Below the pieces are notes generated by a model. It was not told the DNA's origin. It worked only from the letters and a program-made list of their open reading frames with translations, and made no database searches. Below are positions 14,531 to 57,975 of a stretch of 64,000 nucleotides of DNA, piece by piece. The stretch spans positions 1,290-65,289 of the forward strand of contig CAYJMQ010000003.1 in the NCBI GenBank assembly GCA_964371555.1, in the 5' to 3' direction. A program made the translations under genes and the position numbers. Each line of letters opens with the position of its first letter. The first letter of the stretch is position 1. The stretch comes from an uncultured bacterium. GTDB lineage: Bacteria > Bdellovibrionota > JACOXK01 > 2-02-FULL-40-11.

Positions 14531-15256
14531 TTGTCGATTGGAATCTCTTCTGAGAGTAATACCGTCATGAAATCGTTATTGGCGATTTTGTTTATCATTA
14601 TTATTGGGATTGGGGGTGGGGGGGGGCTGAGGGCCTCGGATTTGGTTGAGAGACTTGAGAAAAGTTATCTTTCTATTGAGGATTTTCAGGCAAATTTTGA
14701 GCAGATCGAAACCAATGTCCTTTTAAACAGGGTAAAAAAAACAACGGGGATTATTTATTCTCTCCCCCTTGGCAAGATTTTTTGGCATACCAGGCATCCC
14801 TCCCCTCTGAAAGTGATATCCAACGGCAGGGATGTCTGGATGTTTGATCCAAAAGTCCCGCAGGTTATACACGAGCGCTGGGAAGGGTTGGACGATCAGA
14901 CAAGGCTTGCTCTTCTTTTTTTAAGAAGGGAGGGAAAGTTCAAAGACCATTTTAAAACTTTTGAAAACCTGAAACAGCAGAAACTCACGCTGATTCCAAA
15001 AAAAGCGATCGGTATTTCAAAGATTATCGTGCGGCTTTTTGCTTATCCGTCAGAGAAAGAGGGGGATACGCATTTATTTTTTAAAAAAATTACCTTTTAT
15101 TTTCAACTGGAAAGGAAAACCGATCTGATTTTGGAAGTTGTAAAGTTCAATCAAAAATTAATGCAAAAACATAGAGAGAATCCGATCGATGAAACAATCG
15201 ACCGCAACTTTGGTTTCATAAATCCCTTGAAAACATTAGAGAAAAAGTCAAAATAG
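14531..15256 (+). CDS. LolA-like outer-membrane lipoprotein carrier/chaperone family protein.
   Basis: N-terminal signal or anchor, then LVERLEKSYLSIEDFQANFEQ and later DVWMFDP, resembling the LolA/LolB fold family. The start may be the internal Met at about 14567. Confidence 0.5.
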   Translation: MSIGISSESNTVMKSLLAILFIIIIGIGGGGGLRASDLVERLEKSYLSIEDFQANFEQIETNVLLNRVKKTTGIIYSLPLGKIFWHTRHPSPLKVISNGRDVWMFDPKVPQVIHERWEGLDDQTRLALLFLRREGKFKDHFKTFENLKQQKLTLIPKKAIGISKIIVRLFAYPSEKEGDTHLFFKKITFYFQLERKTDLILEVVKFNQKLMQKHRENPIDETIDRNFGFINPLKTLEKKSK

Positions 15257-33192: not shown

Positions 33193-34104
33193 ATGAGCAT
33201 ACTTGTCGTTGGTTCAGTCGCGTTTGATTCCGTAAAAACCCCCTCTGGCGAAGTTGAAAATGTATTGGGGGGGGCGGCAAACTATTTTTCGATGGCGGCG
33301 CACTTTTTCTCTCCGGTTCGTCTTGTGGGAGTGGTTGGAGATGATTTTCCAAAAAGTCATATTGAATATTTGGAATCAAAAAAAATTTGCACCAAAGGGC
33401 TCAGTTGCGCCCCTGGGAAAACATTTCATTGGCGCGGGGAATATGGAGACGATCTATCCCAGGCGAAGACGCTTTCAACACACCTGAATGTTTTTGAGCA
33501 TTTTAATCCGGAGCTGCCGAAAGATTATCGGAAGACGGAATATCTGTTTCTCGCCAATATAGATCCCGATTTGCAGCTTCGTGTTTTGCAACAGATGGAA
33601 AAACCAAAACTCGTCATCTCAGATACGATGAATTTTTGGATTGATCGGAAACGGCCGGAGCTTGAACGGGTTTTGAGATCCGTTCATATCCTCTTGATCA
33701 ATGAGGGTGAGGCAAGACAGCTCACATCCCAAAACCATCTGATCGATGCCGCAAAAAAAATTCACGAACTGGGTCCATGGGGGGTTGTGATTAAGAGGGG
33801 GGAATACGGCTCCTTTCTCTATTTTGACGGAAAGATTTTTGCCCTCCCTGCCTACCCGGTCAAAGAGGTTCGTGATCCGACGGGGGCGGGGGATACCTTC
33901 GCGGGCGGATTTATTGGCTATTTGGCGAGAGAAAGGCGTCCGCTGGATGAAATGCTTTTAAAACGCGCCATGGCTTTCGGAACCATTCTTGCTTCTTTCA
34001 ATATCGAAGATTTCAGCTTCAACCGGCTCATGGAAATCAGCTGGTCTGACATCGAATCACGCTATCATCAACTTCTTTCGTCAGTTAATGACCAATCGGA
34101 TTAG
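33193..34104 (+). CDS. PfkB-family carbohydrate/nucleoside kinase (ribokinase fold).
   Basis: ILVVGSVAFDSV...LGGAANYF, and a C-terminal DPTGAGDTFAGGFIGYL anion-hole motif. Confidence 0.75.
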   Translation: MSILVVGSVAFDSVKTPSGEVENVLGGAANYFSMAAHFFSPVRLVGVVGDDFPKSHIEYLESKKICTKGLSCAPGKTFHWRGEYGDDLSQAKTLSTHLNVFEHFNPELPKDYRKTEYLFLANIDPDLQLRVLQQMEKPKLVISDTMNFWIDRKRPELERVLRSVHILLINEGEARQLTSQNHLIDAAKKIHELGPWGVVIKRGEYGSFLYFDGKIFALPAYPVKEVRDPTGAGDTFAGGFIGYLARERRPLDEMLLKRAMAFGTILASFNIEDFSFNRLMEISWSDIESRYHQLLSSVNDQSD

Positions 34105-35249
34105 AAATAAAGCATATACTCCAGATTCACCGTCGTCGCTTTTGCGACATTTTTTCCGGCGACGGGGAGTTGAAGATTGACGCCAAGCTCCATCGGAAGG
34201 GCAAATGTTCCTTGTCTGACCCAGGGGAGGGTCGAGAATCCCAGTCCCACATCAGCAATATGTCTTTGTTGGGCTGAGTTTTCCGAGAGGCGGGTTGTCG
34301 AGAGCCCCTCCGCGCTTTGATAACTGTCCTTTTGTTTGAAAAAATAGGCATAAGAGGTATTTACATTGAAAAGGGTTAAAAAAGTATATTGGGCATAAAT
34401 CGCGGCATCTAAAACATCCCCGAGATTTCTTTTTATATTTTCTTTGTTTGATGCAAACAGTTCGCCTTGTCCCGGCAGGCGCAGGAGCTCCTTATCAGGA
34501 AGCTGCACCGTATATTTTAAAAGCCCATTAACGAGAGTGTTGGGGAGTCCCGTATAGTCGGCAAGAAGCGTTGTGCCGAGATCCGTCTGTCCATCCCCGA
34601 ATGCGAGATCTGTGAGATTATCAGGATCGTCTGCGCGGCCTGTCGGAAGCCGAAAGCCGCTTTTCACCGCCAAAGAAAAGAGATCATTTCGCAGGAAAGA
34701 ATATTTCAGCCCCAGTTCCAGATCTCCCAAGCCAAATGCCTCCCAATTTCCAGGCCTTTGGTATCCTTTTTCAACTGCCAGATCTTCTGCAGCTTTGACA
34801 AAATCGACTGGCCCCAAAAGAGGATTGGCCTGTACCGCGTCCGGTTTATTGAATTTGAGCTCATAGATCGAATTCGCGGAAACAATCGGCGCAATAAGCC
34901 CCAGTGTCAGCCGATCTGACAAGCCATATTCCAAAGCGGTGCCCAAAACGAGGCTTGAAATTTTAAGCGATGGGGCAAATGATCCCAGACTATCCATGCC
35001 AAACGCAGCCATCGCGGCAGCCAGCTGGGGATTGAGTTTCGAAGCAAGATCGATATCAAGTGTAACTTCCAAATCCTTCACAAGATTGACCGCATTTCCC
35101 GTTTCATCAAATTTGGAACCAAACTCAAACGCGTAAATCGGCTTCATACGCGCGCGAAATCTCCCTTGAGGGAGCGTAATTGAATTTTCAGCGCTGGCGA
35201 TCACACTTATAAAAAGCCCTGAAATTAAAAAAAGATTTTTCATTTTCAT
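34101..35249 (-). CDS. Outer-membrane beta-barrel protein (hypothetical).
   Basis: Signal peptide MKMKNLFLISGLFISVIASA, alternating amphipathic beta-strands, and a C-terminal LEYMLYF with terminal Phe. Confidence 0.5.
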   Translation of the reverse strand: MKMKNLFLISGLFISVIASAENSITLPQGRFRARMKPIYAFEFGSKFDETGNAVNLVKDLEVTLDIDLASKLNPQLAAAMAAFGMDSLGSFAPSLKISSLVLGTALEYGLSDRLTLGLIAPIVSANSIYELKFNKPDAVQANPLLGPVDFVKAAEDLAVEKGYQRPGNWEAFGLGDLELGLKYSFLRNDLFSLAVKSGFRLPTGRADDPDNLTDLAFGDGQTDLGTTLLADYTGLPNTLVNGLLKYTVQLPDKELLRLPGQGELFASNKENIKRNLGDVLDAAIYAQYTFLTLFNVNTSYAYFFKQKDSYQSAEGLSTTRLSENSAQQRHIADVGLGFSTLPWVRQGTFALPMELGVNLQLPVAGKNVAKATTVNLEYMLYF

Positions 35250-35301: not shown

Positions 35302-35802
35302 TCACCCCGGTTTAAATTCAGGAACCCCTTCTTCGGCCTTAAAAAGAGCGAAGGGGGGTTCTTTGGTCAAAGATGCGATCCGGCGTGAAAGTTCAACCAG
35401 TTCGTTTTTGACAAATCCAATCGTCACAAAATCAATTTTTTGACTACCGAGAATTAAAAAAGCTGTTGGAACCGTTGTGAGATGGTATTTTTTGGAAACC
35501 AGATATGGAGCGGGATCCGGAATCATTGGAAAGGTAATTCCATATTGAGTCGCAAATTCTTTTGTCTCCGGATCCTGACCGATGCCAAAAATCCTAAATT
35601 TTTTCCCATACTGTTTATGAAGCCTTTCAAAAAAGGGATATGCCAGTTGACACGTTGGGCAGGTTTTTTTGTAAAACGTAAGAAGAAGCGGCCCTGCGGG
35701 CGGCGACCCTGCGGGGTGCGGCCCTTCTTTGAGCGCTTTTGAAAGCGTAAATGATGAGAGCGTAAAATCCGGGGCTTTGCTTCCTGCTTTAAAATCTGTC
35801 AT
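35302..35802 (-). CDS. Thioredoxin-fold protein (redoxin/TlpA-like) with a CPTC active site.
   Basis: LLLTFYKKTCPTCQLAYPFFERL in a thioredoxin-like context. Confidence 0.6.
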   Translation of the reverse strand: MTDFKAGSKAPDFTLSSFTLSKALKEGPHPAGSPPAGPLLLTFYKKTCPTCQLAYPFFERLHKQYGKKFRIFGIGQDPETKEFATQYGITFPMIPDPAPYLVSKKYHLTTVPTAFLILGSQKIDFVTIGFVKNELVELSRRIASLTKEPPFALFKAEEGVPEFKPG

Positions 35803-36948: not shown

Positions 36949-39460
<2,512 letters not shown>

Positions 39461-39470
39461 AGGAAATTAA

Positions 39471-40439
39471 ATGTCATCATCGATTGAGCAGGCCAAACGC
39501 GTTCTTCGGATTGAGGCGGAAGCCATTTTAAGTCTGCTGGATAAAGTGGGAGAGAATTTCGATAAGGCAATCGACCTTCTTCTCCACTGCCGCGGCAAAG
39601 TGATTGTGACAGGGATGGGAAAATCAGGGCAGATTTGCAGAAAAATTGCGGCAACGCTTGCCAGCACAGGAACCCCTGCTTTTTTTCTTCATCCGGCAGA
39701 GGGGATTCATGGCGATTTGGGGATGGTTGCTAAAGATGATGTGGCCCTTGCAATTTCCTACAGCGGTGAAACAGATGAGCTGATCGGGATTCTTCCGATG
39801 GTAAAAAGGCTTGGCGTTCCGATTATTTCAATGACAGGGAATATGCAGTCGACACTGGCGCGGGCATCAGATGTTGTTTTGGATTTGAATGTTCCTGAAG
39901 AAGCGTGTCCTTTGGGGCTTGCCCCCACAGCCAGTACGACCGCAACCCTTGCGATGGGGGATGCCGTGGCGGTCGCCCTTCTTGAAAAAAGGGGATTTAG
40001 AGAATCTGATTTTGCGCTTCTTCACCCCGGTGGAACCCTGGGGCGAAAACTTCTCTTTAAAGTCAAAGATCTGATGAAGGTGAAAGATGAGATTCCGCTG
40101 ACAAATATCCGCTCTGACATGCGCCAGACGCTCATGGAGATTACTTCCAAACATTTGGGAACGACCGGTGTTGTAGACGATTCGGGAAAACTGGTTGGGA
40201 TTATTACTGATGGAGACTTGAGGCGCCATCTTAGAAAAAAAACAACAGATTTCTTTAACCAGACGGCCTTCGATCTTATGACAAAAAATCCCAAAACGAT
40301 CGATCAGGAGGAGCTCGCCTCCAAAGCCCTTCATATTATGGAGAAACATACGATTACCTGCCTATTCGTTGTTGGCGGCGACACCCACCCCACCGGCATC
40401 CTTCATCTTCACGATCTGATTCGGGTGAAGGTGGTCTGA
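39471..40439 (+). CDS. kdsD: Arabinose-5-phosphate isomerase (SIS plus tandem CBS domains).
   Basis: GKVIVTGMGKSGQICRKIAATLASTGTPAFFLHPAE SIS motif and a C-terminal CBS pair. Confidence 0.85.
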   Translation: MSSSIEQAKRVLRIEAEAILSLLDKVGENFDKAIDLLLHCRGKVIVTGMGKSGQICRKIAATLASTGTPAFFLHPAEGIHGDLGMVAKDDVALAISYSGETDELIGILPMVKRLGVPIISMTGNMQSTLARASDVVLDLNVPEEACPLGLAPTASTTATLAMGDAVAVALLEKRGFRESDFALLHPGGTLGRKLLFKVKDLMKVKDEIPLTNIRSDMRQTLMEITSKHLGTTGVVDDSGKLVGIITDGDLRRHLRKKTTDFFNQTAFDLMTKNPKTIDQEELASKALHIMEKHTITCLFVVGGDTHPTGILHLHDLIRVKVV

Positions 40440-40561
40440 TTTCCCCATTTGACTTCTATTGCCCAAAGTTTGTTCACCATCCTTAAAAATGGGAACGAAT
40501 CCTTACGCTTTGTGCTCGAAATGACACTTTTTCAACATCCTCGCGCGCGTATTGTCGGTTT

Positions 40562-40589
40562 TTGACAAGATCAGATATCTGGGTAGAAT
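40562..40589 (+). promoter_or_regulatory. Sigma-70-like promoter (TTGACA, 16-nt spacer, TAGAAT) upstream of the first tandem paralog. The spacer contains an 8-bp palindrome AGATATCT.
   Basis: TTGACA 40562-40567 and TAGAAT 40584-40589. The ATG is at 40613. Confidence 0.4.
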
Positions 40590-40612
40590 AAGAATTATCC
40601 GGTGTAGAACGT

Positions 40613-41878
40613 ATGCGATTGCAGGATATTATTTTTTCTCTTTTATTTCTTCTCATTATCTCATTTTACGGTTGCGGGAAGGGTGAGAGGCTGCCACTGC
40701 CCGTAGGGTCAGAGATTCAACAAGAAGCAGGAGGCGGTTTTTTAGATGCGGCGCCTGCGATTTCTGGCGCTGGCATTTTCTTTTCTGATGAAACGGCAAA
40801 AGCCCTCGATGCGCAAGGAAGAGCCATTTCTACGGAGCTTGCTCCATTCTTAAGAAAGCTTACCATAGGCCATGTCAATGTTGGAAACATAGATATTGTC
40901 GCAGCCGCAACATCTGTGGATAAAAAAAAGGTTTTTCTACTGGTCGTGATCGATCACACGACATTGGAGAGCAGACGTGAAGAAAAAGTGGAATCGCTGG
41001 TTTTGTCCGCTCCGATTGAAGATGGAAGAATCCTTTATCGGCAAATGCAATATCATGAGCTGGTTGGCATTCCATTTGGGGTTCTCTTCTGCGCAATGAC
41101 GAGGATAGGCGAAGCAGGGCTCTTATTATCTACCGGAGAGGATTTATTGCAGTTCGAAAGGGGGGAAGGGCTTTCCGCTGAGAGGGGCTTTTCGATTTTA
41201 GCCGGCGATGTATTTCAGTTGAAAAAAATGTATACAAGATCATCGAATCCGCAATCTCAGGTTGTGGGGGGGCCAGGGCCAGGGCCAGGGCCAGGGCCAG
41301 GGATCGTTGAGCTTTTTCCCGGAAAAAATCAAACGATTTTTGCAGTGTCAGGAAGTCGTATCTTTGATTTCATTCTGGATGATGTGGAAGGGACGTTTAG
41401 CTCTGGAACGGTTCAAATAGATTTTGGGGAACCTCTGGGAGGGGGGGAATTCGATTTTTCTCAATCGCGAATCATCGCTGCCAGTCGTTCTGGAAATAAA
41501 GTCTTCTTTACGTCGTCGCAAGAAGTAACCGAAATTCAAAATATATTTGAGATGCCTTTGAGAGGTGTCAGAGATCTTTCAGATATTCTTTTGATTGAGA
41601 ATAAGCTTATTCCAACTTATGGAAATTGTGGCTTTAAAAAATGTCCATCACCGTTAAAAGGGGGTTCTTTATTGGAATTGCGTTGTCTGAATAAACGTGA
41701 ACCACTGGGAGAGACAACGTTTGTGGATATTTTTTTACAATCTGCGCCCCTCCATTCTATTTGGGTTTTTGACTGTCCGGTTGCCTGCTGCCCACTGGAG
41801 TCAGGTTCCGATGGTGATGCGGAGTCAGGTGGTCCTCAAGGTGGCGGAGGGGGAGGTATCCATGTTCCTCCAAATTAA
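40613..41878 (+). CDS. Hypothetical lipoprotein, paralog A of a tandem pair. Carries a (Gly-Pro)5 linker encoded by a GGGCCA microsatellite.
   Basis: Signal peptide with lipobox (LIISFYGC). No recognisable family. Clear paralogy to the downstream ORF, including shared N-terminal domain blocks (VFLLVVIDH / LFLLAIDDV) and a GNCGFKKCPSP motif. Confidence 0.6.
   Translation: MRLQDIIFSLLFLLIISFYGCGKGERLPLPVGSEIQQEAGGGFLDAAPAISGAGIFFSDETAKALDAQGRAISTELAPFLRKLTIGHVNVGNIDIVAAATSVDKKKVFLLVVIDHTTLESRREEKVESLVLSAPIEDGRILYRQMQYHELVGIPFGVLFCAMTRIGEAGLLLSTGEDLLQFERGEGLSAERGFSILAGDVFQLKKMYTRSSNPQSQVVGGPGPGPGPGPGIVELFPGKNQTIFAVSGSRIFDFILDDVEGTFSSGTVQIDFGEPLGGGEFDFSQSRIIAASRSGNKVFFTSSQEVTEIQNIFEMPLRGVRDLSDILLIENKLIPTYGNCGFKKCPSPLKGGSLLELRCLNKREPLGETTFVDIFLQSAPLHSIWVFDCPVACCPLESGSDGDAESGGPQGGGGGGIHVPPN
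41270..41302 (+). repeat. (GGGCCA)x5 hexanucleotide microsatellite inside paralog A, encoding PGPGPGPGPG.
   Basis: Direct reading of 41270-41302. It is preceded by a G7 run. Confidence 0.9.
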
Positions 41879-43703
41879 CCGTACGCTTCTTTTTTTGGTC
41901 ATCGTCATGATGAGTTTTGGCGGTAAAACAGCTGCCACTGACAGTGTTTCTTCCCTTATCATCGCAAATCCTTCGAATCTCAATATTGTGGCTGCGGGAG
42001 TGACCTTTGATCACGCGCGCTTATTTTTGCTTGCTATCGATGATGTAAATGTTCAAGAATCAGCAACGGGAAAGCAGCGAATTCCCTTCCTTCTTTCTGT
42101 CCCTATAGTCAATGGAAATGTCCTCTATCAGCTGATGAAACAACACCGTCTGGTTGGAATGGAAGAGGGGTTGATTCCATGTGCCCTGACGCCGCTCACA
42201 TCCGATGGCCGGGAACTCTTACTTTCCAATGGGTCCCAACTTTTTCGGTTTGAAATCACAAGAATAGAAACAGTGGGGATAGATGCCTCTATTGCCCCAG
42301 CCGGTTTTGATTTTCGTTTTGTCAAAAAATATGAGCCATCCCCTCAGACGACAGGTATTGAGGAGCTCTTTTCTGATGAAGAACGACCGGGAACTTTTTA
42401 CGCTATTTCTGAAAAAAGGGTTTTTGAGTTTACACTGGATGATACGAGGAATTTATTTTTGAAAGGGGGATTTGAACGGGAGTTTCCCGAACTTTTAGGG
42501 GGTGGGGCAAAGCTTGGGGACCGATTCTATCTGGGAGGCAAGGGGGGACGCCTTTATGTTACAGATCTTTTAAACTTGGTAAATTTAGAGATAGAGACTC
42601 GGGATTTGTCTCCTTCCCGGTTTTCGGAATTGGGGGGGGTCTCTGAACTTTCTGATATGATATTTTTGAAAAAGGAATCAGAAAAACTGGCGATTACGGT
42701 TGGAAACTGCTCTGGACAATTCAAAGGATGTCCTTCTCCACCGAACATTGAGGAGGGAGATACAACGTTTGCCTGTATAAACAAGCGCGCCCCTGGCATT
42801 AGCTTTTTTACAGATCCCTTATTTGCGTCTCCGACAAATCCACAAGGCTTGATTACATTTAAAACTTTGGGTCCGCCACGAACCGGACTTATCTCTATAA
42901 CAAATTTGAAATGTTGCCCTTTCTTTGCGCCTGCAGAATCGCCGTTTGCAAGTGGCGGCCCTGCTGGTGGCGACTCTGCAGGCGGCGATTCTGCAGGTGG
43001 CGGCCCTGCTGGTGGCGACTCTGCTGGTGGCGACTCTGCGGAACCACTGCCCGCAGGGCCAACACTTACAGAGATTCCTTCAACTGGGGTAACTGGGGTT
43101 TCATGTCCGGTTATTACCTCAAGCGACACCTCATTCCCCCCCACCATTCAGCCGCTTCTTAATCTGGGCTTAAGTCTTTCAGCCGGAAAACTTTTTTTTA
43201 ATGCTTCAGGGGGGACAAGAATGCTCTCTCAATCCACCTTCGTGAAAATACCTTCTGTCGAGATAATACCCTCCATTCCCATAAAGGTGTTGCGGTTTCA
43301 GTTCCTCTTGACAAATCTTCAGGGGCCCGAAACCCGGACAGACGCGGCGGGGAGAAAGACGGCGACGCCGGGAACCGCAAATGTGACTCTGAATGTTGCG
43401 GCTCTGGATGTGGCGGGGAAGAACATAGCGTTTGCCCAGCAGACGAGGTCAACGATATTTTTTGATTCCCTGGGGAACCGATTAAGTAAACCGATATTAA
43501 CATCTGGCACGAGATTATTTATTCCTGAATCAACAATGAAAGGGTTTACCGCGGTTCAAAGTGACGGCAAAACGATCGATTTTACCGTCGATCTTCCACT
43601 TACTACAAAGACAGTGACGATCACCTTCACGGAAGACTCTTCATTTACGGCAAAAGAATTTTCTGCCGGAGTTTGTGAACTTCCTGTCATACAAACTCCA
43701 TAA
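41862..43703 (+). CDS. Hypothetical secreted protein, paralog B of the tandem pair. Carries GG(D/P)SA pentapeptide repeats and a C-terminal beta-rich extension.
   Basis: ATG at 41862 preceded by GGAGG. Signal peptide MFLQINRTLLFLVIVMMSFGG. Homologous to paralog A over about 400 aa (GNCSGQFKGCPSP motif). The six-frame ORF starting at 41697 overlaps paralog A and is probably not translated. Confidence 0.6.
   Translation: MFLQINRTLLFLVIVMMSFGGKTAATDSVSSLIIANPSNLNIVAAGVTFDHARLFLLAIDDVNVQESATGKQRIPFLLSVPIVNGNVLYQLMKQHRLVGMEEGLIPCALTPLTSDGRELLLSNGSQLFRFEITRIETVGIDASIAPAGFDFRFVKKYEPSPQTTGIEELFSDEERPGTFYAISEKRVFEFTLDDTRNLFLKGGFEREFPELLGGGAKLGDRFYLGGKGGRLYVTDLLNLVNLEIETRDLSPSRFSELGGVSELSDMIFLKKESEKLAITVGNCSGQFKGCPSPPNIEEGDTTFACINKRAPGISFFTDPLFASPTNPQGLITFKTLGPPRTGLISITNLKCCPFFAPAESPFASGGPAGGDSAGGDSAGGGPAGGDSAGGDSAEPLPAGPTLTEIPSTGVTGVSCPVITSSDTSFPPTIQPLLNLGLSLSAGKLFFNASGGTRMLSQSTFVKIPSVEIIPSIPIKVLRFQFLLTNLQGPETRTDAAGRKTATPGTANVTLNVAALDVAGKNIAFAQQTRSTIFFDSLGNRLSKPILTSGTRLFIPESTMKGFTAVQSDGKTIDFTVDLPLTTKTVTITFTEDSSFTAKEFSAGVCELPVIQTP
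42954..43043 (+). repeat. Six tandem 15-nt units (GGCGRCBCTGCWGGY) encoding GGPAG/GDSAG repeats in paralog B.
   Basis: Direct reading of 42954-43043. Confidence 0.85.
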
Positions 43704-43745
43704 GCGGCGACGGCCTCCAATAAGTTGGCACAGATTTTGCTTGCG

Positions 43746-43761
43746 GTTTTGACACCCTGCC
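43746..43761 (+). promoter_or_regulatory. Candidate sigma-54 (-24/-12) promoter TGGCAC-N5-TTGCT upstream of the lptC/A-like-lptB-rpoN operon.
   Basis: TGGCACAGATTTTGCT has GG and GC exactly 12 nt apart, as in the TGGCACG-N4-TTGCW consensus. It sits about 105 nt upstream of the GTG start at 43866. Confidence 0.4.
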
Positions 43762-43865
43762 TCATTGGTGCTAGCATAAAATTGTATTACATCATTACAT
43801 TACATCTGGGAAGTTTACCTCGATACAAGTACAGGGGTTAAACCCAATCAGAAGGGTGGATAAGA

Positions 43866-44843
43866 GTGTTAACGGTTAGACGCACATCGCCGCTTGCTTT
43901 TTTGGTTTTGGCGGTTGTTGTCGCGGAATTGCTGGTTTTTATGCCGACAAGCATTAAAAAAGAGGCGACAATGAATGAAATTGTGATTCCGCCCGAAGGG
44001 GCGAATCTGAGCATTAAAGGTTTTCGGGCTGTCCATTTCAATCAGGAAGGTCAAAAGGAAATTATTAAAGCAGATGAGGCGGAGCTCTATCGCAAAGAGG
44101 GGTTTTCTTATCTTAAAAATGTCGATGTGACGATTTTTTCAAAGGGAGGTCAGACCCTCCTCATCCATGGCTTGGCCGGAAAACATTTTTTGGAAACGAA
44201 AGATGTGGAGCTCTCCGATCAGGTTACGGCGACTTCGGAAAATCTCGGCTATGAATTAAAAACAAATTATTTAAAATATGAAGAGACGAGAAATCTTCTT
44301 TCAAGCTGGGACAAAATAGAACTTCTTGGCCCGAACCCCAAAGAACCGTCGCTTATTGTTTTGGGAGAGGGGCTGGAAGGGAACACCAAAACGCAGGAAT
44401 TTAAAATTTTAAAGGATGTTCGGTGCCAAAAATTTGATGTCAAAGCGGATGCTATTGACATCACTTCTCTGCAGGCGCAATTCTTTCTTGCCAGAAATGA
44501 AGGGCTTTTTCAGAATAATGTTGTTGTAAAACAGAAAGACATGACTATTTATGCGGATAATTTTCTCGTTAATTTTAACAATCAAAACCGGGGCATCGAT
44601 AAAGCCAAGGCATACCCCGATGTGAAGATTGTTCAGGGGGATCGTGTGGCAACCTGCGAGCGGGCATATCTTTTGAATCGCGAGCAAAAGATAGTGCTTG
44701 TGGGGCGTCCCAAAGTAACGCAGGGGAACGACATCGTTGAAGCAAAGGTTGTCATATTCTATACGGCTCAAAATAAGATTGTGTTTGACGATGCGATTGG
44801 CGAAGTTGATGTCAAAAAGGTTCAGAAGCTCGAAGGGGAATAG
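43866..44843 (+). CDS. LPS-transport periplasmic protein. LptC-like N-terminal half (TM anchor) fused to an LptA/OstA-like C-terminal half.
   Basis: N-terminal TM helix. First half resembles LptC (IKGFRAVHFNQEGQKEIIKADEAELYRKEGFSYLKNVDVTIF). Second half resembles LptA (ADAIDITS...GNDIVEAKVVIFY). Located immediately upstream of lptB. GTG start. Confidence 0.55.
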   Translation: MLTVRRTSPLAFLVLAVVVAELLVFMPTSIKKEATMNEIVIPPEGANLSIKGFRAVHFNQEGQKEIIKADEAELYRKEGFSYLKNVDVTIFSKGGQTLLIHGLAGKHFLETKDVELSDQVTATSENLGYELKTNYLKYEETRNLLSSWDKIELLGPNPKEPSLIVLGEGLEGNTKTQEFKILKDVRCQKFDVKADAIDITSLQAQFFLARNEGLFQNNVVVKQKDMTIYADNFLVNFNNQNRGIDKAKAYPDVKIVQGDRVATCERAYLLNREQKIVLVGRPKVTQGNDIVEAKVVIFYTAQNKIVFDDAIGEVDVKKVQKLEGE

Positions 44844-48286: not shown

Positions 48287-49483
48287 ATGAGTCGTGAACG
48301 GGTTTTATTTACTTCGGAATCTGTGACAGAAGGGCATCCGGATAAAATGTGCGATCAAATTTCTGACGCGGTTTTGGATGCGTATCTTGAAAAAGACAAA
48401 CATGCGCGTGTGGCGTGCGAGGTGCTGGCCTCCAAAGATGTGGTGATGGTTGCCGGAGAAGTGACGTCAAAAGCCTTTGTCGATATTCCACAGCTTGTGA
48501 GAGAAACTGTTAAAGAGATTGGCTACGATGATCCCGCCATCGGATTTGATTATAAAACCTGTTCAGTGTTGACCTCTCTTGGCAAACAATCCCCTGATAT
48601 CTCTCAGGGGGTGACCGAAGGCGAAGGGCTTTTTAAAGAGCAGGGGGCGGGTGATCAGGGACTGATGTTCGGTTACGCGTGCAATGAGACCGATGTATTG
48701 ATGCCGATGTCGATTCTTTACGCCCATTATTTAACAAAGGCGTTGTCGGATGCGCGTCGAACCCGAAAGCTCCCTTTTTTGAGACCCGATGGAAAATCAC
48801 AGGTGACCGTTGAATATCGGGAGGGGGTTCCTGTCCGGATAGATACCGTTGTTATCTCAGCGCAGCACGATGAAAAAGTTTCCCGTAAAGATCTGAAAGA
48901 GGGGATTATGGATGAGGTTATTAAAAAATCGATTCCAGAGAGATATTTGGATTCGCAAACCAAATATTTCATAAATCCGACCGGGCGATTTGTGGTTGGG
49001 GGTCCGACGGGCGATGCCGGTCTTACGGGACGAAAAATTATTGTCGACAGCTATGGCGGACATGGAAGTCATGGCGGAGGATGTTTCTCAGGGAAAGATC
49101 CGACAAAAGTCGATCGTTCGGCCTGTTACATGGGGCGCTACATTGCAAAAAATATTGTGGCGGCAAAGCTGGCAGATCGCTGCCTGGTTCAGCTTGCTTA
49201 CGCAATCGGTATTGCTGATCCGATTTCGGTTTATATCAACGATTTTGGAATAGCAACGGCGCCAGGTCAAAAATTGCCAGGTCAAAAATTGCCAGATCAA
49301 AAATTGGAAGAAGCAGTCCGGGAGATTTTTCCTTTAAAACCGAAGGAAATCATTCGAACCTTAAATCTCTCCCGGCCGATCTATAAGAAAACCGCTTCAT
49401 TTGGGCATTTCGGACGCACAGAACCTGAGTTTACATGGGAAAAAACAGACAGGGTCAAAGATCTTCAGCGGCTTGTTCCGTAA
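48287..49483 (+). CDS. metK: S-adenosylmethionine synthetase, with an in-frame tandem-repeat insertion near the C-terminus.
   Basis: [24 protein letters not shown] and [16 protein letters not shown](A) motifs. An extra [16 protein letters not shown] segment is present. Confidence 0.9.
49262..49306 (+). repeat. Three tandem 15-nt units (CCAGGTCAAAAATTG x2, CCAGATCAAAAATTG) in frame within metK.
   Basis: Direct reading of the sequence. Encodes [15 protein letters not shown]. Confidence 0.9.
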
Positions 49484-55725: not shown

Positions 55726-57975
55726 TTGATGCTCAAAACAACACTGGCCATTTTCTTTGTCTCCGCCTCGGCGCTGATGTTTGAAGTTTCACTTTCGCGG
55801 ATGCTTTCAATAGCGCACGGTCAGGAGCTTTCGTATATGGTGATCAGCCTTGCCTTGCTCGGTTATGGCATTGCAACCCCGCTTCTCTCCCGTCTGCGGC
55901 GGGTCAGGGAAGGAGATGCGTCAAAATGGCCGCTCGCATTGTCGATTTCGATTCCGCTGATTCTTGCGATTGCTCATTTTATTTCAGTCGATTCTCAGCG
56001 GTTGGTCTGGGAGTGGGGCCCCTGGTTAAAAGTTTCAGTATTTTATTTTTTATTTACGATTCCATTCCTTTTTGCGGGACTGACTATTGCCTCTCTTCTT
56101 TCAAAAATGCCCGAAAAATCTTTTCTTCTATATTCGGGGGATCTTCTTGGCGCTGGCGTTGGAGCGCTTCTCCCTTTTTTCTTTCTTCCGCTTTCTTCAT
56201 GTTGGATCGCCATCCTTTTGTCATCGGCCGGGGGCGCTCTTCTTTCCAAAAACATGAGAGAAAAAGGGGTGAGTCTCGCCCTCATCGGTGTGGCTTTCTT
56301 TCTCATGGCGCAAAAAAGCGATCGGTTTTTCGAACTGAAGTTTTCTCCGTCGCGCGGTCTGCCGACGGCGCTGCTTGAACCGGGGGCAAAGCTCAAAGAA
56401 ACGCATTGGTCGCCCTGGACGAGAATAGATATTTTCTCCGCCGCGGCGGCGCGCGTTGCGCCAGGGCTTAGCCTCAATTATTTATCAGACATCCCAAAAT
56501 TTGATGGGATCGCTGTCGATGGCGATCAGATTTTTCCAAGAATAAATGACGATCCCAAATATTATGATCTCTCTTTTTTAGACGATCTTCCCCAAGCGCT
56601 TCCTTATGTTCTGATTCCACAACATCCCTCGGTTCTGCTTATTCACACGCAGGGGGGGGTTGAACTCTTTGAAGCGGTCTTTCATCGCGCTTTTGTGGAG
56701 CTGATTGAAAAGGATAAACTCTTTCGGCGCGCGCAATTTCCAACCTATTCCGGATGGCATTTGGTTCCTGTCAGCGGCTATTTAAAGCGGAAAAGACAGC
56801 TCTACGATTTCATTATCATCGGTCATTTGGGAGGGGGCGGGGCGCTCTCTACCGGCATGTCTGCAATGCGTCAGGATTTTAATCTAACGGTTGAGACGCT
56901 AGGGCTTGCGTATCAAAATCTGGCTGATCGCGGTTTTGTTGTGGTTCATCTCTTTCGTCTTCCTCCGGAAAGATTGGAATATCGTCTGCTCAATACAATG
57001 ATTGCAAGTCTAAAAGGGGAAAAAAGAGATCCCTCGAAACATATTGCTATCGTGAGATCCCTTCAGACCTATACGTTTTTGATGAGCCGCAATCCGATAT
57101 CGCCCGAAATTTTTTCGAAAATAAAAGATTTTTGCGATGGGAAGGGATTCGAACTGGTTTATCCCTTAAATGGCAATCTTTTTTCAGATCTCATTGCCGG
57201 AAAAGAAATCGGGACGCCATTTTCTCTGGATCCGATCACCGATGATCGCCCCTTTCCGGAACAATCGCTTCGATTGAGAAACATAAAAAAAATTGTCGCC
57301 GCCGCCAAAGGGCATTGGCAGATCGTATTGGAAGGGGGGGGATGGAGTTTTGCAGTCTTTCTTCAAACGATTCTTGCCTCCATTTTAATTCTGGGTCTTT
57401 CAGGAGCCGCCAGAGGGAGAAGGCATTTGAATCTTTATTTCCTTGCGATCGGCTTCGGTTTTATTTTTGTTGAGATTGGATGGATGCAGAGATTATCCAT
57501 TCTGCTTACGCATCCGGCCCAGGCGGTACCCATTGTTTTGGGAGGGATGCTTCTTGGAAGTGGATTAGGGGCGAAATTAGGGGAATTTATAAAAATAAAA
57601 TCACTTTCGACCATTGCGTGTGTTGTTTCAGCTTTTGTGTCTTTCAACTCGGTATTCTTTTTAAAATACGCGATTGAATTCATTTCAGCTCATCCAGTTA
57701 TATTGGCCCCTTCGTCTCTCATGTTATTTTTTGCGGTGGCATTTTTTGCGGTTCCTCTGGGAATTCCATTTCCAGCTATGCTTTCAACATTAAAGGATCC
57801 GCAAAAAATTGCGTGGTTGTGGGGCGTCAACGCCTGTGCCTCTGTTTGCGGCGCTGTGTTGGCCGCGGCTCTCGCGCCGATGGTCGGTTTTACTTCGATT
57901 TTTTTAATTTCTTTGGGTTTTTATCTTTTGGCGGCGCTTGCATCCGTGCTTTCCCGATCATCGGCACAAATCTGA
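55726..57975 (+). CDS. Large polytopic membrane protein with a central spermidine-synthase-like (class I methyltransferase-fold) domain flanked by TM bundles (tentative).
   Basis: About eight N-terminal and six C-terminal hydrophobic helices. The central soluble region [17 protein letters not shown]...ELIE...YDFIIIG resembles the VLIIGGGDG/EID/DvIivD motifs of aminopropyltransferases. Confidence 0.4.

What the first reader, a model, noticed from the sequence alone, without database searches (positions are those of the whole stretch)
40562..43703. Tandem paralogous secreted repeat proteins sitting in the kdsC slot of the kdsD-lpt-rpoN envelope cluster
Paralog A is a 421-aa lipoprotein and paralog B a 613-aa secreted protein. 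They share about 400 aa of collinear similarity, including GNCxxxKxCPSP Cys motifs, yet neither matches a family I recognise. Both carry microsatellite-encoded low-complexity linkers: (GGGCCA)5 encoding PGPGPGPGPG, and six 15-nt units encoding GGPAG/GDSAG. The pair has its own sigma-70-like promoter with an AGATATCT palindrome. It lies where kdsC normally sits, between kdsD and lptC/lptA/lptB/rpoN, so a role in LPS or outer-membrane biogenesis, or as a variable surface protein, is plausible. The repeat tracts predict length polymorphism between strains.
Basis: partly seen in the sequence, partly recalled or inferred. Interest (0 to 1): 0.8.

Follow-up and report, generated by a model that had tools for sequence, protein, structure and literature searches.

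The report
Swappable secreted beta-propeller protein pair
Two real, related secreted proteins of an uncultured groundwater bacterium, one lipid-anchored and one soluble, are each probably built on a five-bladed beta-propeller, and because unrelated secreted-protein genes fill the same spot in very close relatives they look like variable envelope proteins rather than lipopolysaccharide machinery.

Summary
Gene A (40613-41878, 421 aa) has a lipoprotein signal peptide. Gene B (41862-43703, 613 aa) has an ordinary signal peptide. They are paralogs (30% identity, E=6e-33) with a shared Cys motif and in-frame tandem repeats. They have a strong sigma-70-like promoter and lie between kdsD and a fused lptC-lptA gene.

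No curated library matches either protein. An exhaustive profile search of 1.84 billion representative proteins found only one ortholog pair and one distant fragment.

In a sister genome the flanks are 89-93% identical, but different secreted-protein genes fill the slot. Only the promoter, the leader, the signal peptide and B's C-terminal domain are kept. The ortholog pair elsewhere is not next to kdsD.

I read this as a small replacement island of variable envelope proteins, not LPS machinery and not a KdsC substitute. Biochemical function is unknown. It is a new orphan family of a known kind, of moderate interest.

The parts
40562..40589 (+). Sigma-70-like promoter of the A-B pair (TTGACA-16-TAGAAT)
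   Evidence: It matches 11 of 12 consensus positions. The -35 hexamer is invariant and the -10 is TA(G/C)AAT in L002 and L001. The AGATATCT palindrome in the spacer is not conserved.
40590..40612 (+). Short conserved leader (…TATCCGGTGTAGAACGT) ahead of the A start codon
   Evidence: It is nearly invariant in L002 and L001, although L001 is only 71% identical overall.
40613..41878 (+). Gene A: 421-aa lipoprotein. Order: signal peptide, conserved ~65-aa N-terminal segment, propeller-type domain, Cys-rich module, Gly-rich tail.
   Evidence: The ORF is and there are no family hits. The ortholog P0006 is 68% identical with dN/dS 0.20. It is a paralog of B, E=6e-33.
40613..40675 (+). Lipoprotein signal peptide of A, ending in lipobox SFYG-C (Cys21)
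   Evidence: It matches the PROSITE PS51257 pattern. It is 88% identical at nucleotide level to the first slot gene of L002, which is otherwise unrelated. The +2 residue is Gly.
40862..41617 (+). A residues ~84-335: domain homologous to B's predicted five-bladed beta-propeller
   Evidence: The fold is transferred from B by the 30% identity alignment. A's own model failed (pLDDT 38), though it was all-beta hairpins.
41270..41302 (+). (GGGCCA)5.5 microsatellite encoding (PG)5, inserted in a loop of A's propeller domain
   Evidence: TRF gives 100% matches. The tract is absent from the ortholog P0006 and from B. It aligns between B strands 149-160 and 166-171.
41618..41794 (+). A residues ~336-394: Cys-rich module (GNC-x4-C-P-x-P … C-x2-KR … CCP)
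   Evidence: It holds five of the six invariant Cys of the family.
41862..43703 (+). Gene B: 613-aa Sec-secreted paralog, overlapping A's end by 17 nt
   Evidence: The ORF and the SD GGAGG 5 nt upstream of ATG 41862 are. NCBI's version starts at 41817 (628 aa). The ortholog P0002 is 63% identical with dN/dS 0.26.
41862..41936 (+). Predicted type-I signal peptide of B (MFLQINRTLLFLVIVMMSFGGKTAA|T)
   Evidence: Read from the sequence: the hydrophobic core has KD 2.99 and there is no lipobox. The cleavage site is inferred, not computed with SignalP.
41952..42704 (+). B residues ~31-281: predicted five-bladed beta-propeller
42705..42917 (+). B residues ~282-352: Cys-rich module ending in CCP
   Evidence: The Cys residues are conserved. 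The model confidence here is low. The last part (C305…CC351/352) aligns weakly with P0003.
42947..43039 (+). Tandem repeat (15 nt x5.9, also read as 45 nt x2.1) encoding the GGPAG/GDSAG linker
   Evidence: TRF scores are 120 and 158, the highest in the window. The unit is a multiple of 3. The ortholog P0002 has a different Pro-rich linker here.
43059..43700 (+). B residues ~400-613: C-terminal beta-rich domain with Cys415 and Cys605 near its two ends
   Evidence: It is shared with P0003 and P0004, whose N-domains differ; BLASTP over B residues 300-613 gives 50% identity (58-66% within this domain), E=2e-74. Conservation is mosaic: 43324-43440 is about 90% identical and 43624-43684 is 93%. dS is 0.81 against 0.12-0.29 in the adjacent lptCA.
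39471..40439 (+). kdsD (left conserved flank)
   Evidence: NCBIfam KdsD/KpsF hit at 1e-102 or better. It is 92% identical at nucleotide level to L002.
43866..44843 (+). lptC-lptA fusion gene (right conserved flank)
   Evidence: Pfam finds LptC at residues 30-187 and LptD_N/LptA at 199-303. It is 94% identical at protein level to L002 and 83% to L007.

Best explanation
A and B are a co-transcribed pair of extracytoplasmic proteins, probably translationally coupled. They belong to an orphan family confined, as far as public data show, to a few uncultured groundwater bacteria that NCBI labels 'Deltaproteobacteria bacterium'.

Each protein carries an N-terminal export signal, a ~250-aa five-bladed beta-propeller and a ~70-90-aa module with five conserved cysteines ending in CCP. 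The cysteines are presumably disulfide-bonded. A flexible Gly/Pro tract follows. A is lipidated at Cys21. With Gly at +2, it is probably sent by the Lol pathway to the outer membrane. B is released into the periplasm or beyond and carries an extra ~215-aa C-terminal beta-rich domain.

The locus is a small replacement island. A conserved promoter, leader and lipoprotein signal peptide lie on the left. B's C-terminal domain and lptCA lie on the right. Together they frame a body that differs completely between very close relatives. The most likely role is therefore a variable, exposed ligand-binding or adhesive envelope component. Diversity would be maintained by homologous recombination through the conserved ends, with in-frame slippage of the linker repeats adding length variation.

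Shown: the genes, paralogy, export signals, repeats, promoter conservation, cassette replacement and purifying selection.
Supported by a model: the propeller fold.
Inferred: outer-membrane or surface location, disulfides, A-B interaction, the binding role, and the selective agent (phage or predator avoidance, or niche-specific ligands).
For: Genes and signals:
- ORFs, overlap and SD.
- Lipobox pattern match, conserved in relatives.
- A LolA homolog lies in the window at 14531-15256.

Paralogy and conserved Cys.

Orphan status:
- No hit in Pfam, NCBIfam, PHROGs, PADLOC or the PDB sequence search.
- The word-indexed search found only the proteins themselves, the orthologs P0002 and P0006, and the C-domain sharers P0003 and P0004.
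- An exhaustive hmmsearch of 1.84e9 representatives added only P0012, at E=5e-4.

Fold:
- The AF2 model of B has pLDDT 70-90 for residues ~35-281.
- Foldseek returns 525 hits at E<=1e-3, and almost all of the 50 top hits listed are WD40-type propellers.

Replacement:
- L002 has the order kdsA-kdsD-[211 aa lipoprotein][P0003][403 aa lipoprotein]-lptCA-lptB-rpoN…, with flanks 89-93% identical at nucleotide level.
- Inside its slot only window 40558-40690 and 43290-43704 are alignable.
- L005 carries P0004 directly upstream of an lptCA that is 96% identical.
- dS of the shared C-domain is 0.81, against 0.12-0.29 for the adjacent lptCA.
- All slot genes in all versions start with signal peptides, and three are lipoproteins.

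Selection: A and B's N-domain have dN/dS 0.20-0.26. The alternative cassette's N-domain (P0003 against P0004) has 0.90.

Not tied to the kds-lpt cluster: L001 contains no KdsD or LptCA homology (tblastn E<=10), so A' is not preceded by kdsD there; the 129 nt after B' are too short to exclude lptCA downstream. P0012 sits next to mutL-miaA.

Repeat lability: both tracts are missing from the orthologs. The 15-nt metK repeat differs by two units between the window and L002.

The concept of replacement islands for exposed structures exchanged by homologous recombination comes from PMC4033161.
Against: - No localisation, expression or binding data exist. Surface exposure is pure inference.
- The fold rests on one moderate-confidence model built from a 7-row alignment. 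A's own model failed (pLDDT 38). No internal repeat signal was detectable.
- The comparison set is tiny: four independent versions of the slot or cassette, all from metagenome contigs.
- Flank identity of ~90% means different species, so 'strain-level' variation is shown only by the short L005 contig.
- GC content of the cassette equals the flanks, so there is no compositional sign of recent import.
- Propellers of this type are as often enzymes as binders.
- The gene pair does sit in an envelope-biogenesis cluster in two or three lineages, which could still reflect co-regulation.
Confidence: 0.5

Rival explanations
1. A and B are lineage-specific accessory factors of LPS transport or outer-membrane assembly. 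This would resemble BamB, a beta-propeller lipoprotein of the BAM complex. On this view they are co-located with kdsA/kdsD and lptCA/lptB because they work with them.
For: - They sit between kdsD and lptCA in the window, and the slot is also occupied by lipoproteins in L002.
- A is a predicted propeller lipoprotein.
- There is a faint, non-significant BamB match in the PDB profile search, E=1.6.
- LptC and LptA are unusually fused here, so the Lpt bridge may be atypical.
Against: - The slot content is non-homologous in genomes with 89-96% identical flanks. That is unlike an essential-machine component.
- The ortholog pair in L001 is not preceded by kdsD, and the short contig shows no KdsD or LptCA homology. 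P0012 lies next to mutL.
- The pair has its own promoter, and a separate promoter-like site precedes lptCA.
- The model has five blades, not BamB's eight.
- There is no Lpt or Bam family signal.
Confidence: 0.12
2. A and B are secreted enzymes with a five-bladed-propeller active site. They would be distant analogues of type I glutaminyl cyclase, YjiK-like proteins or lactonase/NHL-type hydrolases, acting on periplasmic or extracellular substrates.
For: - Several invariant polar residues (N89, N92, D103, D114, E119, H148, D256, D257, E273 in A numbering) could line a pocket.
Against: - Identity to these structures is 9-13%.
- Neither Pfam nor NCBIfam reports any family for A or B, even at E<=1.
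- Catalytic residues could not be checked.
- Duplication into a lipoprotein plus a soluble pair, stalk-like repeat linkers and cassette replacement are more typical of binding or exposed proteins than of housekeeping enzymes.
Confidence: 0.2
3. The pair is cargo of a phage or other mobile element, for example a receptor-binding or superinfection-exclusion protein inserted between kdsD and lptCA.
For: - Content at the site is variable.
Against: - There are no PHROG or PADLOC hits.
- No relative was found in 2.9 million viral contigs. BFVD hits are generic propellers only.
- The slot has no integrase, transposase or tRNA.
- GC content and skew match the flanks.
Confidence: 0.04
4. The ORFs are not functional genes. 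They would be decaying pseudogenes or chance ORFs stabilised by repeat-rich sequence.
For: The proteins are orphans with low-complexity tracts. A 197-aa shadow ORF exists on the opposite strand at 42554-43147.
Against: - Both frames are intact in a ~29% nucleotide-diverged ortholog pair, with dN/dS 0.20-0.26.
- The promoter, SD and signal peptides are conserved, and six Cys are invariant.
- The model gives a confident beta-propeller core.
Confidence: 0.02

Closest known systems
Five-bladed beta-propellers of the type I (plant/bacterial) glutaminyl cyclase and YjiK (SdiA-regulated) kind (PDB 3mbr, 3nok, 3qqz)
   Different: - Identity is only 9-13%.
- There is no Pfam or NCBIfam membership.
- A and B add a Cys-rich module, repeat linkers and, in B, a C-terminal domain.
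- Catalytic residues are untested.
BamB (beta-propeller outer-membrane lipoprotein of the BAM complex)
   Same: It is a lipoprotein with a beta-propeller body encoded among envelope-biogenesis genes. It gives a faint profile match (E=1.6).
   Different: - BamB has eight blades and is conserved across Proteobacteria. This statement rests on established knowledge.
- A and B are predicted to have five blades, are confined to about three genomes, and are replaced in sister genomes.
Replacement flexible genomic islands (Lopez-Perez, Martin-Cuadrado and Rodriguez-Valera 2014, PMC4033161)
   Same: - They occupy the same chromosomal position between conserved syntenic core genes.
- Close relatives carry non-homologous content of the same general class (exported or exposed proteins).
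- No mobility genes are present.
- Divergence is elevated at the retained edge: dS 0.81 against 0.12-0.29.
   Different: - Classical examples are 10-100-kb glycosylation, O-chain, pilus or flagellum clusters. This one is a 2-3-gene, ~3-kb protein cassette.
- It has its own conserved promoter, leader and signal-peptide 'handle'.
- Only four versions have been sampled, and exposure is not shown.
Variable lipoprotein loci with a conserved 5' leader and signal peptide and a repeat-rich variable body (e.g. Mycoplasma Vlp/Vsa; recalled from the literature, not tested here)
   Same: - The promoter, 5'UTR and lipoprotein signal peptide are conserved.
- The mature part is divergent or swapped.
- In-frame tandem repeats give size variation.
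   Different: - There is no evidence of multiple silent copies, invertible promoters or homopolymer switches. The window has only this one copy.
- Variation is seen between genomes, not shown within a clone.
- The repeat units are multiples of 3, so no on/off switching is possible.

Membership tests
Bacterial lipoprotein (Lgt/LspA substrate) | N-terminal signal peptide ending in a lipobox [LIVMFWSTAG]2-[LIVMFYSTAGCQ]-[AGS]-C with a preceding uncharged stretch (PROSITE PS51257) | tested here: met
   A residues 1-21 match the pattern. The lipobox is conserved in P0006 and in the L002 211-aa protein. B does not match, so it is an SPase I-type candidate only. Lipidation itself cannot be tested with these tools.
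KdsC (KDO-8-phosphate phosphatase, HAD superfamily) | Sequence membership in the HAD/KdsC families, and cytoplasmic location | tested here: not met
   Neither Pfam nor NCBIfam reports any family for A or B at E<=1. Both proteins carry export signals. No KdsC was found among 20 other window ORFs scanned. The rest of the genome is unavailable.
Lpt proteins (LptC/LptA/OstA jellyroll) | Match to PF06835, PF03968 or the TIGR models | tested here: not met
   Only the neighbouring gene at 43866-44843 matches. A and B do not.
BamB | Eight-bladed PQQ-like propeller lipoprotein with a significant sequence match | tested here: not met
   The PDB profile match has E=1.6 over 40 residues. The best structural matches are five-bladed.
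Type I glutaminyl cyclase (PF05096) | Five-bladed propeller fold | tested here: met
Type I glutaminyl cyclase (PF05096) | Sequence family membership and catalytic/metal-site residues | tested here: not met
   There is no Pfam hit at E<=1 and identity is 9-10%. Active-site residues could not be compared.
YjiK / SdiA-regulated domain | Sequence family membership | tested here: not met
Replacement flexible genomic island | Same site between syntenic conserved genes in close relatives, with non-homologous content | tested here: met
   Comparing the window with L002, L003 and L005: flanks are 89-96% identical at nucleotide level and the body is not alignable.
Replacement flexible genomic island | Content encodes exposed cell structures | not testable with these tools
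   All slot proteins have signal peptides or lipoboxes. Surface exposure needs an experiment.
Replacement flexible genomic island | Peak of mostly synonymous substitutions at the island boundaries | tested here: inconclusive
   The retained C-domain has dS 0.81, against 0.12-0.29 for the adjacent lptCA. Its dN is also raised, and only two or three sequences are available.
Phase-variable contingency gene (SSR-mediated frameshift) | Repeat unit not divisible by 3, or a homopolymer in the ORF or promoter that switches expression | tested here: not met
   The units are 6, 15 and 45 nt, all in frame. They can give length variation only.
Phage or defence-system protein | Match to PHROGs, PADLOC or viral contigs | tested here: not met

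The most novel reading that the evidence does not exclude
The kdsD|lptCA gap in this uncultured lineage may be a dedicated 'expression site' for interchangeable envelope proteins. A fixed promoter, leader and lipoprotein signal peptide on one side, and a fixed C-terminal anchoring or partner-binding domain on the other, would frame module bodies that are swapped by recombination. A-B would be one such body: an otherwise unknown Cys-stapled five-bladed-propeller family. The conserved C-terminal domain, with its near-invariant patches LQGPETRxDAAGRKTATPGTANV and FTEDSSFTAKEFSAGVCELP, would then be a new docking or sorting domain, possibly docking onto the neighbouring Lpt machinery or LPS.
Probability: 0.15. 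Interest if true: 0.65.

Novelty: new member of a known kind. Interest (0 to 1): 0.38.

Why it matters
If the reading is right, three things follow.
- The locus adds a sequence-orphan family of exported five-bladed propellers with a distinctive cysteine module.
- It gives a compact example of a protein-only replacement island inside one of the most conserved envelope gene clusters of Gram-negative bacteria (kdsD-lpt-rpoN).
- It warns against inferring function from position in that cluster.

It also offers testable handles, namely the conserved leader and the conserved C-terminal domain, for studying how uncultured groundwater bacteria diversify their envelope. It does not open a long-standing question, and the biochemical function stays unknown.

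Tried and rejected
- **Curated libraries:** Pfam, NCBIfam, PHROGs and PADLOC gave nothing for A, B or the alternative slot proteins. The only matches were a sub-threshold Big_6 hit in the L002 211-aa protein and a sub-threshold CBM60 hit in B's C-domain.
- **PDB sequence-profile search:** nothing significant.
- **Rfam and tRNA scans of the window:** nothing.
- **AF2 of A with 4 sequences:** pLDDT 38, unusable.
- **hhalign between putative blades:** no significant internal repeat.
- **P0011:** this 4120-aa Ig-repeat giant scored E=2e-27 in the exhaustive search. The score is the sum of 30 weak ~46-residue matches, so I treat it as a repeat artefact.
- **Profile search with B's C-domain:** returned no hit at all, not even the input proteins. 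This looks like a tool quirk and is uninformative.
- **afdb50 fold library:** unavailable.
- **Anchor searches with LptCA:** these gave only one genome (the same contig as L002) and one short metagenome contig, so the lineage is very thinly sampled.
- **C-terminal domains of P0002 and of the L002 403-aa protein:** they share only the layout of B's C-domain (CCP, Pro/Gly linker, ~180 aa with a Cys at each end). There is no significant sequence similarity.
- **AGATATCT palindrome as an operator:** rejected, because it is not conserved.
- **Literature:** searches on kdsD/lptC hypervariability and on LptC-LptA fusion found nothing.

Full report
**1. What is there**

On the + strand the window reads:
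- pyrG (36949-38649)
- kdsA (38621-39460)
- kdsD (39471-40439)
- gene A (40613-41878)
- gene B (41862-43703)
- a single gene with both LptC and LptA/OstA domains (43866-44843)
- lptB, rpoN, hpf, rapZ, metK and ahcY

A is 421 aa. B is 613 aa if it starts at ATG 41862. That start lies 5 nt after a GGAGG and leads straight into a signal peptide. The NCBI record used an ATG 45 nt upstream, giving 628 aa. B's start overlaps A's end by 17 nt, which suggests translational coupling.

A's first 21 residues fit the PROSITE lipobox rule (…IISFYG-C21), with Gly at +2. B has a positively charged n-region, a hydrophobic core and T-A-A before residue 26, and no lipobox. No dedicated signal-peptide predictor was available.

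TRF finds (GGGCCA)5.5 at 41270-41302. It also finds a 15-nt x5.9 array, equivalently 45-nt x2.1, at 42947-43039. These are the highest-, second- and fourth-scoring arrays of the whole window.

The promoter TTGACA-16-TAGAAT at 40562-40589 matches 11 of 12 consensus positions. BLASTP of A against B gives 30% identity over 362 columns, E=6e-33. This covers about 320-330 residues of each protein, somewhat less than the 400 claimed.

**2. Are they real genes?**

A Logan contig (L001, SRR22387935) carries an ortholog pair in the same order, with the same overlap and the same promoter. A' (P0006) is 68% identical and B' (P0002) is 63% identical; nucleotide identity is 71%. dN/dS is 0.20 for A and 0.26 for B's N-domain, over 352-406 codons.

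Six cysteines are invariant among the four sequences (A C160, C339, C344, C358, C392, C393). The motifs GNC…C-P-x-P, C-x2-KR and CCP are also invariant. These are functional genes under purifying selection.

**3. How isolated is the family?**

Pfam, NCBIfam, PHROGs, PADLOC and a PDB profile search give nothing.

The word-indexed search of 5.8 billion clusters found four kinds of hit:
- the proteins themselves
- the L001 pair
- two proteins (P0003 and P0004) that share only B's C-terminal part
- nothing else

An exhaustive hmmsearch of 1.84 billion representatives with the 4-sequence N-domain profile added a single distant fragment. This is P0012, at E=5e-4, and it has recognisable NIVGAA…FLLVL, ELF, SDIIF and G-x-C motifs. 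It also added a giant Ig-repeat protein whose score is the sum of 30 weak hits, which I discount. P0012 lies at a contig end next to mutL and miaA, not near kds or lpt genes. No relative exists in 2.9 million viral contigs.

**4. Fold**

AlphaFold2 on A with a 4-row alignment failed (pLDDT 38), although it predicted only beta hairpins.

B with a 7-row alignment gave mean pLDDT 51. Residues ~35-281 reached 70-90 and contain 19 strands. Residues 282-613 are unreliable.

Foldseek's 50 best PDB hits are almost all WD40-type propeller chains. BFVD gives only generic propellers. Type I glutaminyl cyclases are indeed five-bladed propellers (PMC7948796).

Identity to all of these is 9-13%, and no sequence family matches. 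This is fold-level similarity only, and A inherits the fold by homology. A's (PG)5 tract aligns to a gap between two strands of B (149-160 and 166-171). It is therefore a loop insertion, and it is absent from the ortholog.

The domain order is:
- A: lipoprotein signal, conserved ~65-aa segment, propeller, Cys module, Gly-rich tail.
- B: signal, propeller, Cys module, repeat-encoded GGPAG/GDSAG linker, ~215-aa beta-rich C-domain with a Cys near each end.

**5. The surroundings change the interpretation**

P0003 led to a 12.6-kb contig of a sister MAG, L002 (the same contig as L006), with two shorter Hainich groundwater contigs. NCBI labels the P0003 source MAG 'Deltaproteobacteria bacterium'; the GTDB record for this contig (L006) is titled only 'uncultured bacterium'.

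Its gene order is kdsA-kdsD-[slot]-lptCA-lptB-rpoN-hpf-rapZ-metK-ahcY. The flanks are 89-93% identical at nucleotide level to the window (dS 0.22-0.44, dN/dS 0.10-0.17).

Its slot holds three different genes:
- a 211-aa lipoprotein
- P0003, with a different and partly helical-looking N-domain ending in CCC
- a 403-aa lipoprotein with its own FCCP-linker-domain layout

Only two pieces of the slot are alignable:
- Window 40558-40690, which is the promoter, leader and lipoprotein signal peptide (88% identical).
- Window 43290-43704, which is the end of B's C-domain (75% identical).

A JGI contig (L005) carries P0004 directly upstream of an lptCA whose first 120 codons are 96% identical to the window's (dS 0.118). 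Yet the C-domain next to it has dS 0.81.

Identity along that C-domain is mosaic:
- ~90% at 43324-43440
- 93% at 43624-43684
- 45-60% elsewhere
- 95-100% from the lptCA start onward

The N-domains of P0003 and P0004 differ with dN/dS 0.90.

In L001 the A'-B' pair, promoter included, is preceded by a divergently transcribed signal-peptide ORF instead of kdsD. tblastn finds no KdsD or LptCA on that contig. Only 129 nt follow B' there, so the downstream neighbour is undetermined.

**6. Explanation**

The slot is a small replacement island. It keeps the same position between conserved core genes and holds unrelated exported-protein genes in close relatives. It has no mobility genes, and its composition equals the flanks. 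This is the pattern described for replacement flexible genomic islands, which encode exposed structures and are exchanged by homologous recombination (PMC4033161).

The conserved promoter, leader and signal peptide, together with the conserved C-domain and lptCA, are the natural recombination handles.

A and B are one cassette. It consists of an outer-membrane-directed lipoprotein and a secreted paralog. Outer-membrane targeting is inferred from Gly at +2 and from a LolA homolog in the window. Each paralog is a cysteine-stapled five-bladed propeller on a flexible stalk. I therefore favour a variable binding or adhesive envelope function over any role in KDO or LPS synthesis or transport.

- Shown: genes, signals, paralogy, repeats, promoter conservation, replacement and selection regime.
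- Model-based: the propeller fold.
- Inferred: location, disulfides, A-B contact, ligand binding and the selective agent.

**7. Rivals**

- **Lpt/Bam accessory role.** BamB is also a propeller lipoprotein, so this cannot be excluded. It is disfavoured by the replacement, the different context in L001 and for P0012, the pair's own promoter and the blade number.
- **Phage or mobile origin, or non-genes.** contradict both.

**8. Repeat polymorphism**

The prediction could not be tested directly. The only other assembly of this sequence (L009) is 100% identical over 2539 nt and probably derives from the same data.

Indirect evidence favours lability:
- Both tracts are absent or different in the orthologs.
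- A 15-nt repeat in metK (49261-49306) has three units in the window and one in L002.

The metK case also shows that in-frame 15-nt duplications are a property of this genome, not of surface proteins alone. All the units are multiples of three, so they change length, not phase.

**9. Verdict**

The 'kdsC slot means LPS function' idea is not supported. The 'variable envelope protein' idea is supported and can be sharpened to a cassette in a replacement island.

This is a new orphan family with a known fold and a known kind of genomic behaviour. Interest is moderate.

Noticed in passing
window 43866-44843: LptC and LptA are encoded as one 325-aa protein. It has a TM helix, an LptC domain at residues 30-187 and an LptA/OstA_N domain at 199-303. 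lptB starts 6 nt later and there is no separate lptA. The fusion is conserved in L002 (94% identical) and L007 (83%). A literature search for such a fusion found nothing.
   Followed up: partly
window 49261-49306 (metK): A 15-nt tandem repeat (GCCAGGTCAAAAATT x3.1) inside the housekeeping gene metK encodes PGQKL repeats. The sister genome L002 has a single unit, so the window carries a 30-nt in-frame expansion. In-frame 15-nt duplications are therefore not restricted to A and B in this genome.
   Followed up: yes
window 43749-43777: A second strong promoter-like site (TTGACA-17-TAGCAT with an upstream TG) lies in the B-lptCA intergenic region. This suggests that lptCA-lptB-rpoN are transcribed independently of A-B. 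The region from 43713 onward is ~92% identical in L002.
   Followed up: partly
window 41817 vs 41862: The public annotation starts B at ATG 41817 (628 aa). ATG 41862 has a GGAGG 5 nt upstream and gives an immediate signal peptide, so it is the more plausible start.
   Followed up: partly
window 42554-43147 (- strand): A 197-aa ORF lies antisense to B across the repeat tract and would encode AESPP/AGPPP repeats. It is a shadow ORF of the GC-rich repeat, not a gene.
   Followed up: no
L002 2974-3700 vs L005 136-870 (N-domains of P0003 and P0004): The alternative cassette's N-domain has dN/dS of about 0.90 (dN 0.27, dS 0.30) between two close relatives. Housekeeping flanks give 0.10-0.17. This indicates relaxed or diversifying selection.
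   Followed up: partly
window 43324-43440 and 43624-43684: Two patches of B's C-terminal domain are 90-93% identical at nucleotide level to L005, while the rest of the domain is 45-60% identical. They encode LQGPETRTDAAGRKTATPGTANV and ITFTEDSSFTAKEFSAGVCELP. They could be functional motifs or recombination footholds.
   Followed up: partly
window 14531-15256 and 35302-35802 (-): A LolA homolog (lipoprotein chaperone) and a ResA/TlpA-like periplasmic thiol-disulfide oxidoreductase are encoded in the window. Both are relevant to sorting and oxidising Cys-rich lipoproteins. The oxidoreductase ORF also contains a 15-nt x2.5 repeat at 35688-35725.
   Followed up: no
window 55726-57975 and 34101-35249 (-): Two further sizeable ORFs (749 aa and 381 aa) have no NCBIfam match at E<=1e-5.
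   Followed up: no
P0011 (4120 aa): A giant Ig-like-repeat protein scored E=2e-27 against the A/B profile through 30 weak ~46-residue matches. This is almost certainly additive noise from a repeat protein.
   Followed up: partly
(profile of B's C-domain): The word-indexed profile search returned no hit at all, not even P0001, P0003 or P0004, from which the profile was built. The null result is uninformative.
   Followed up: no
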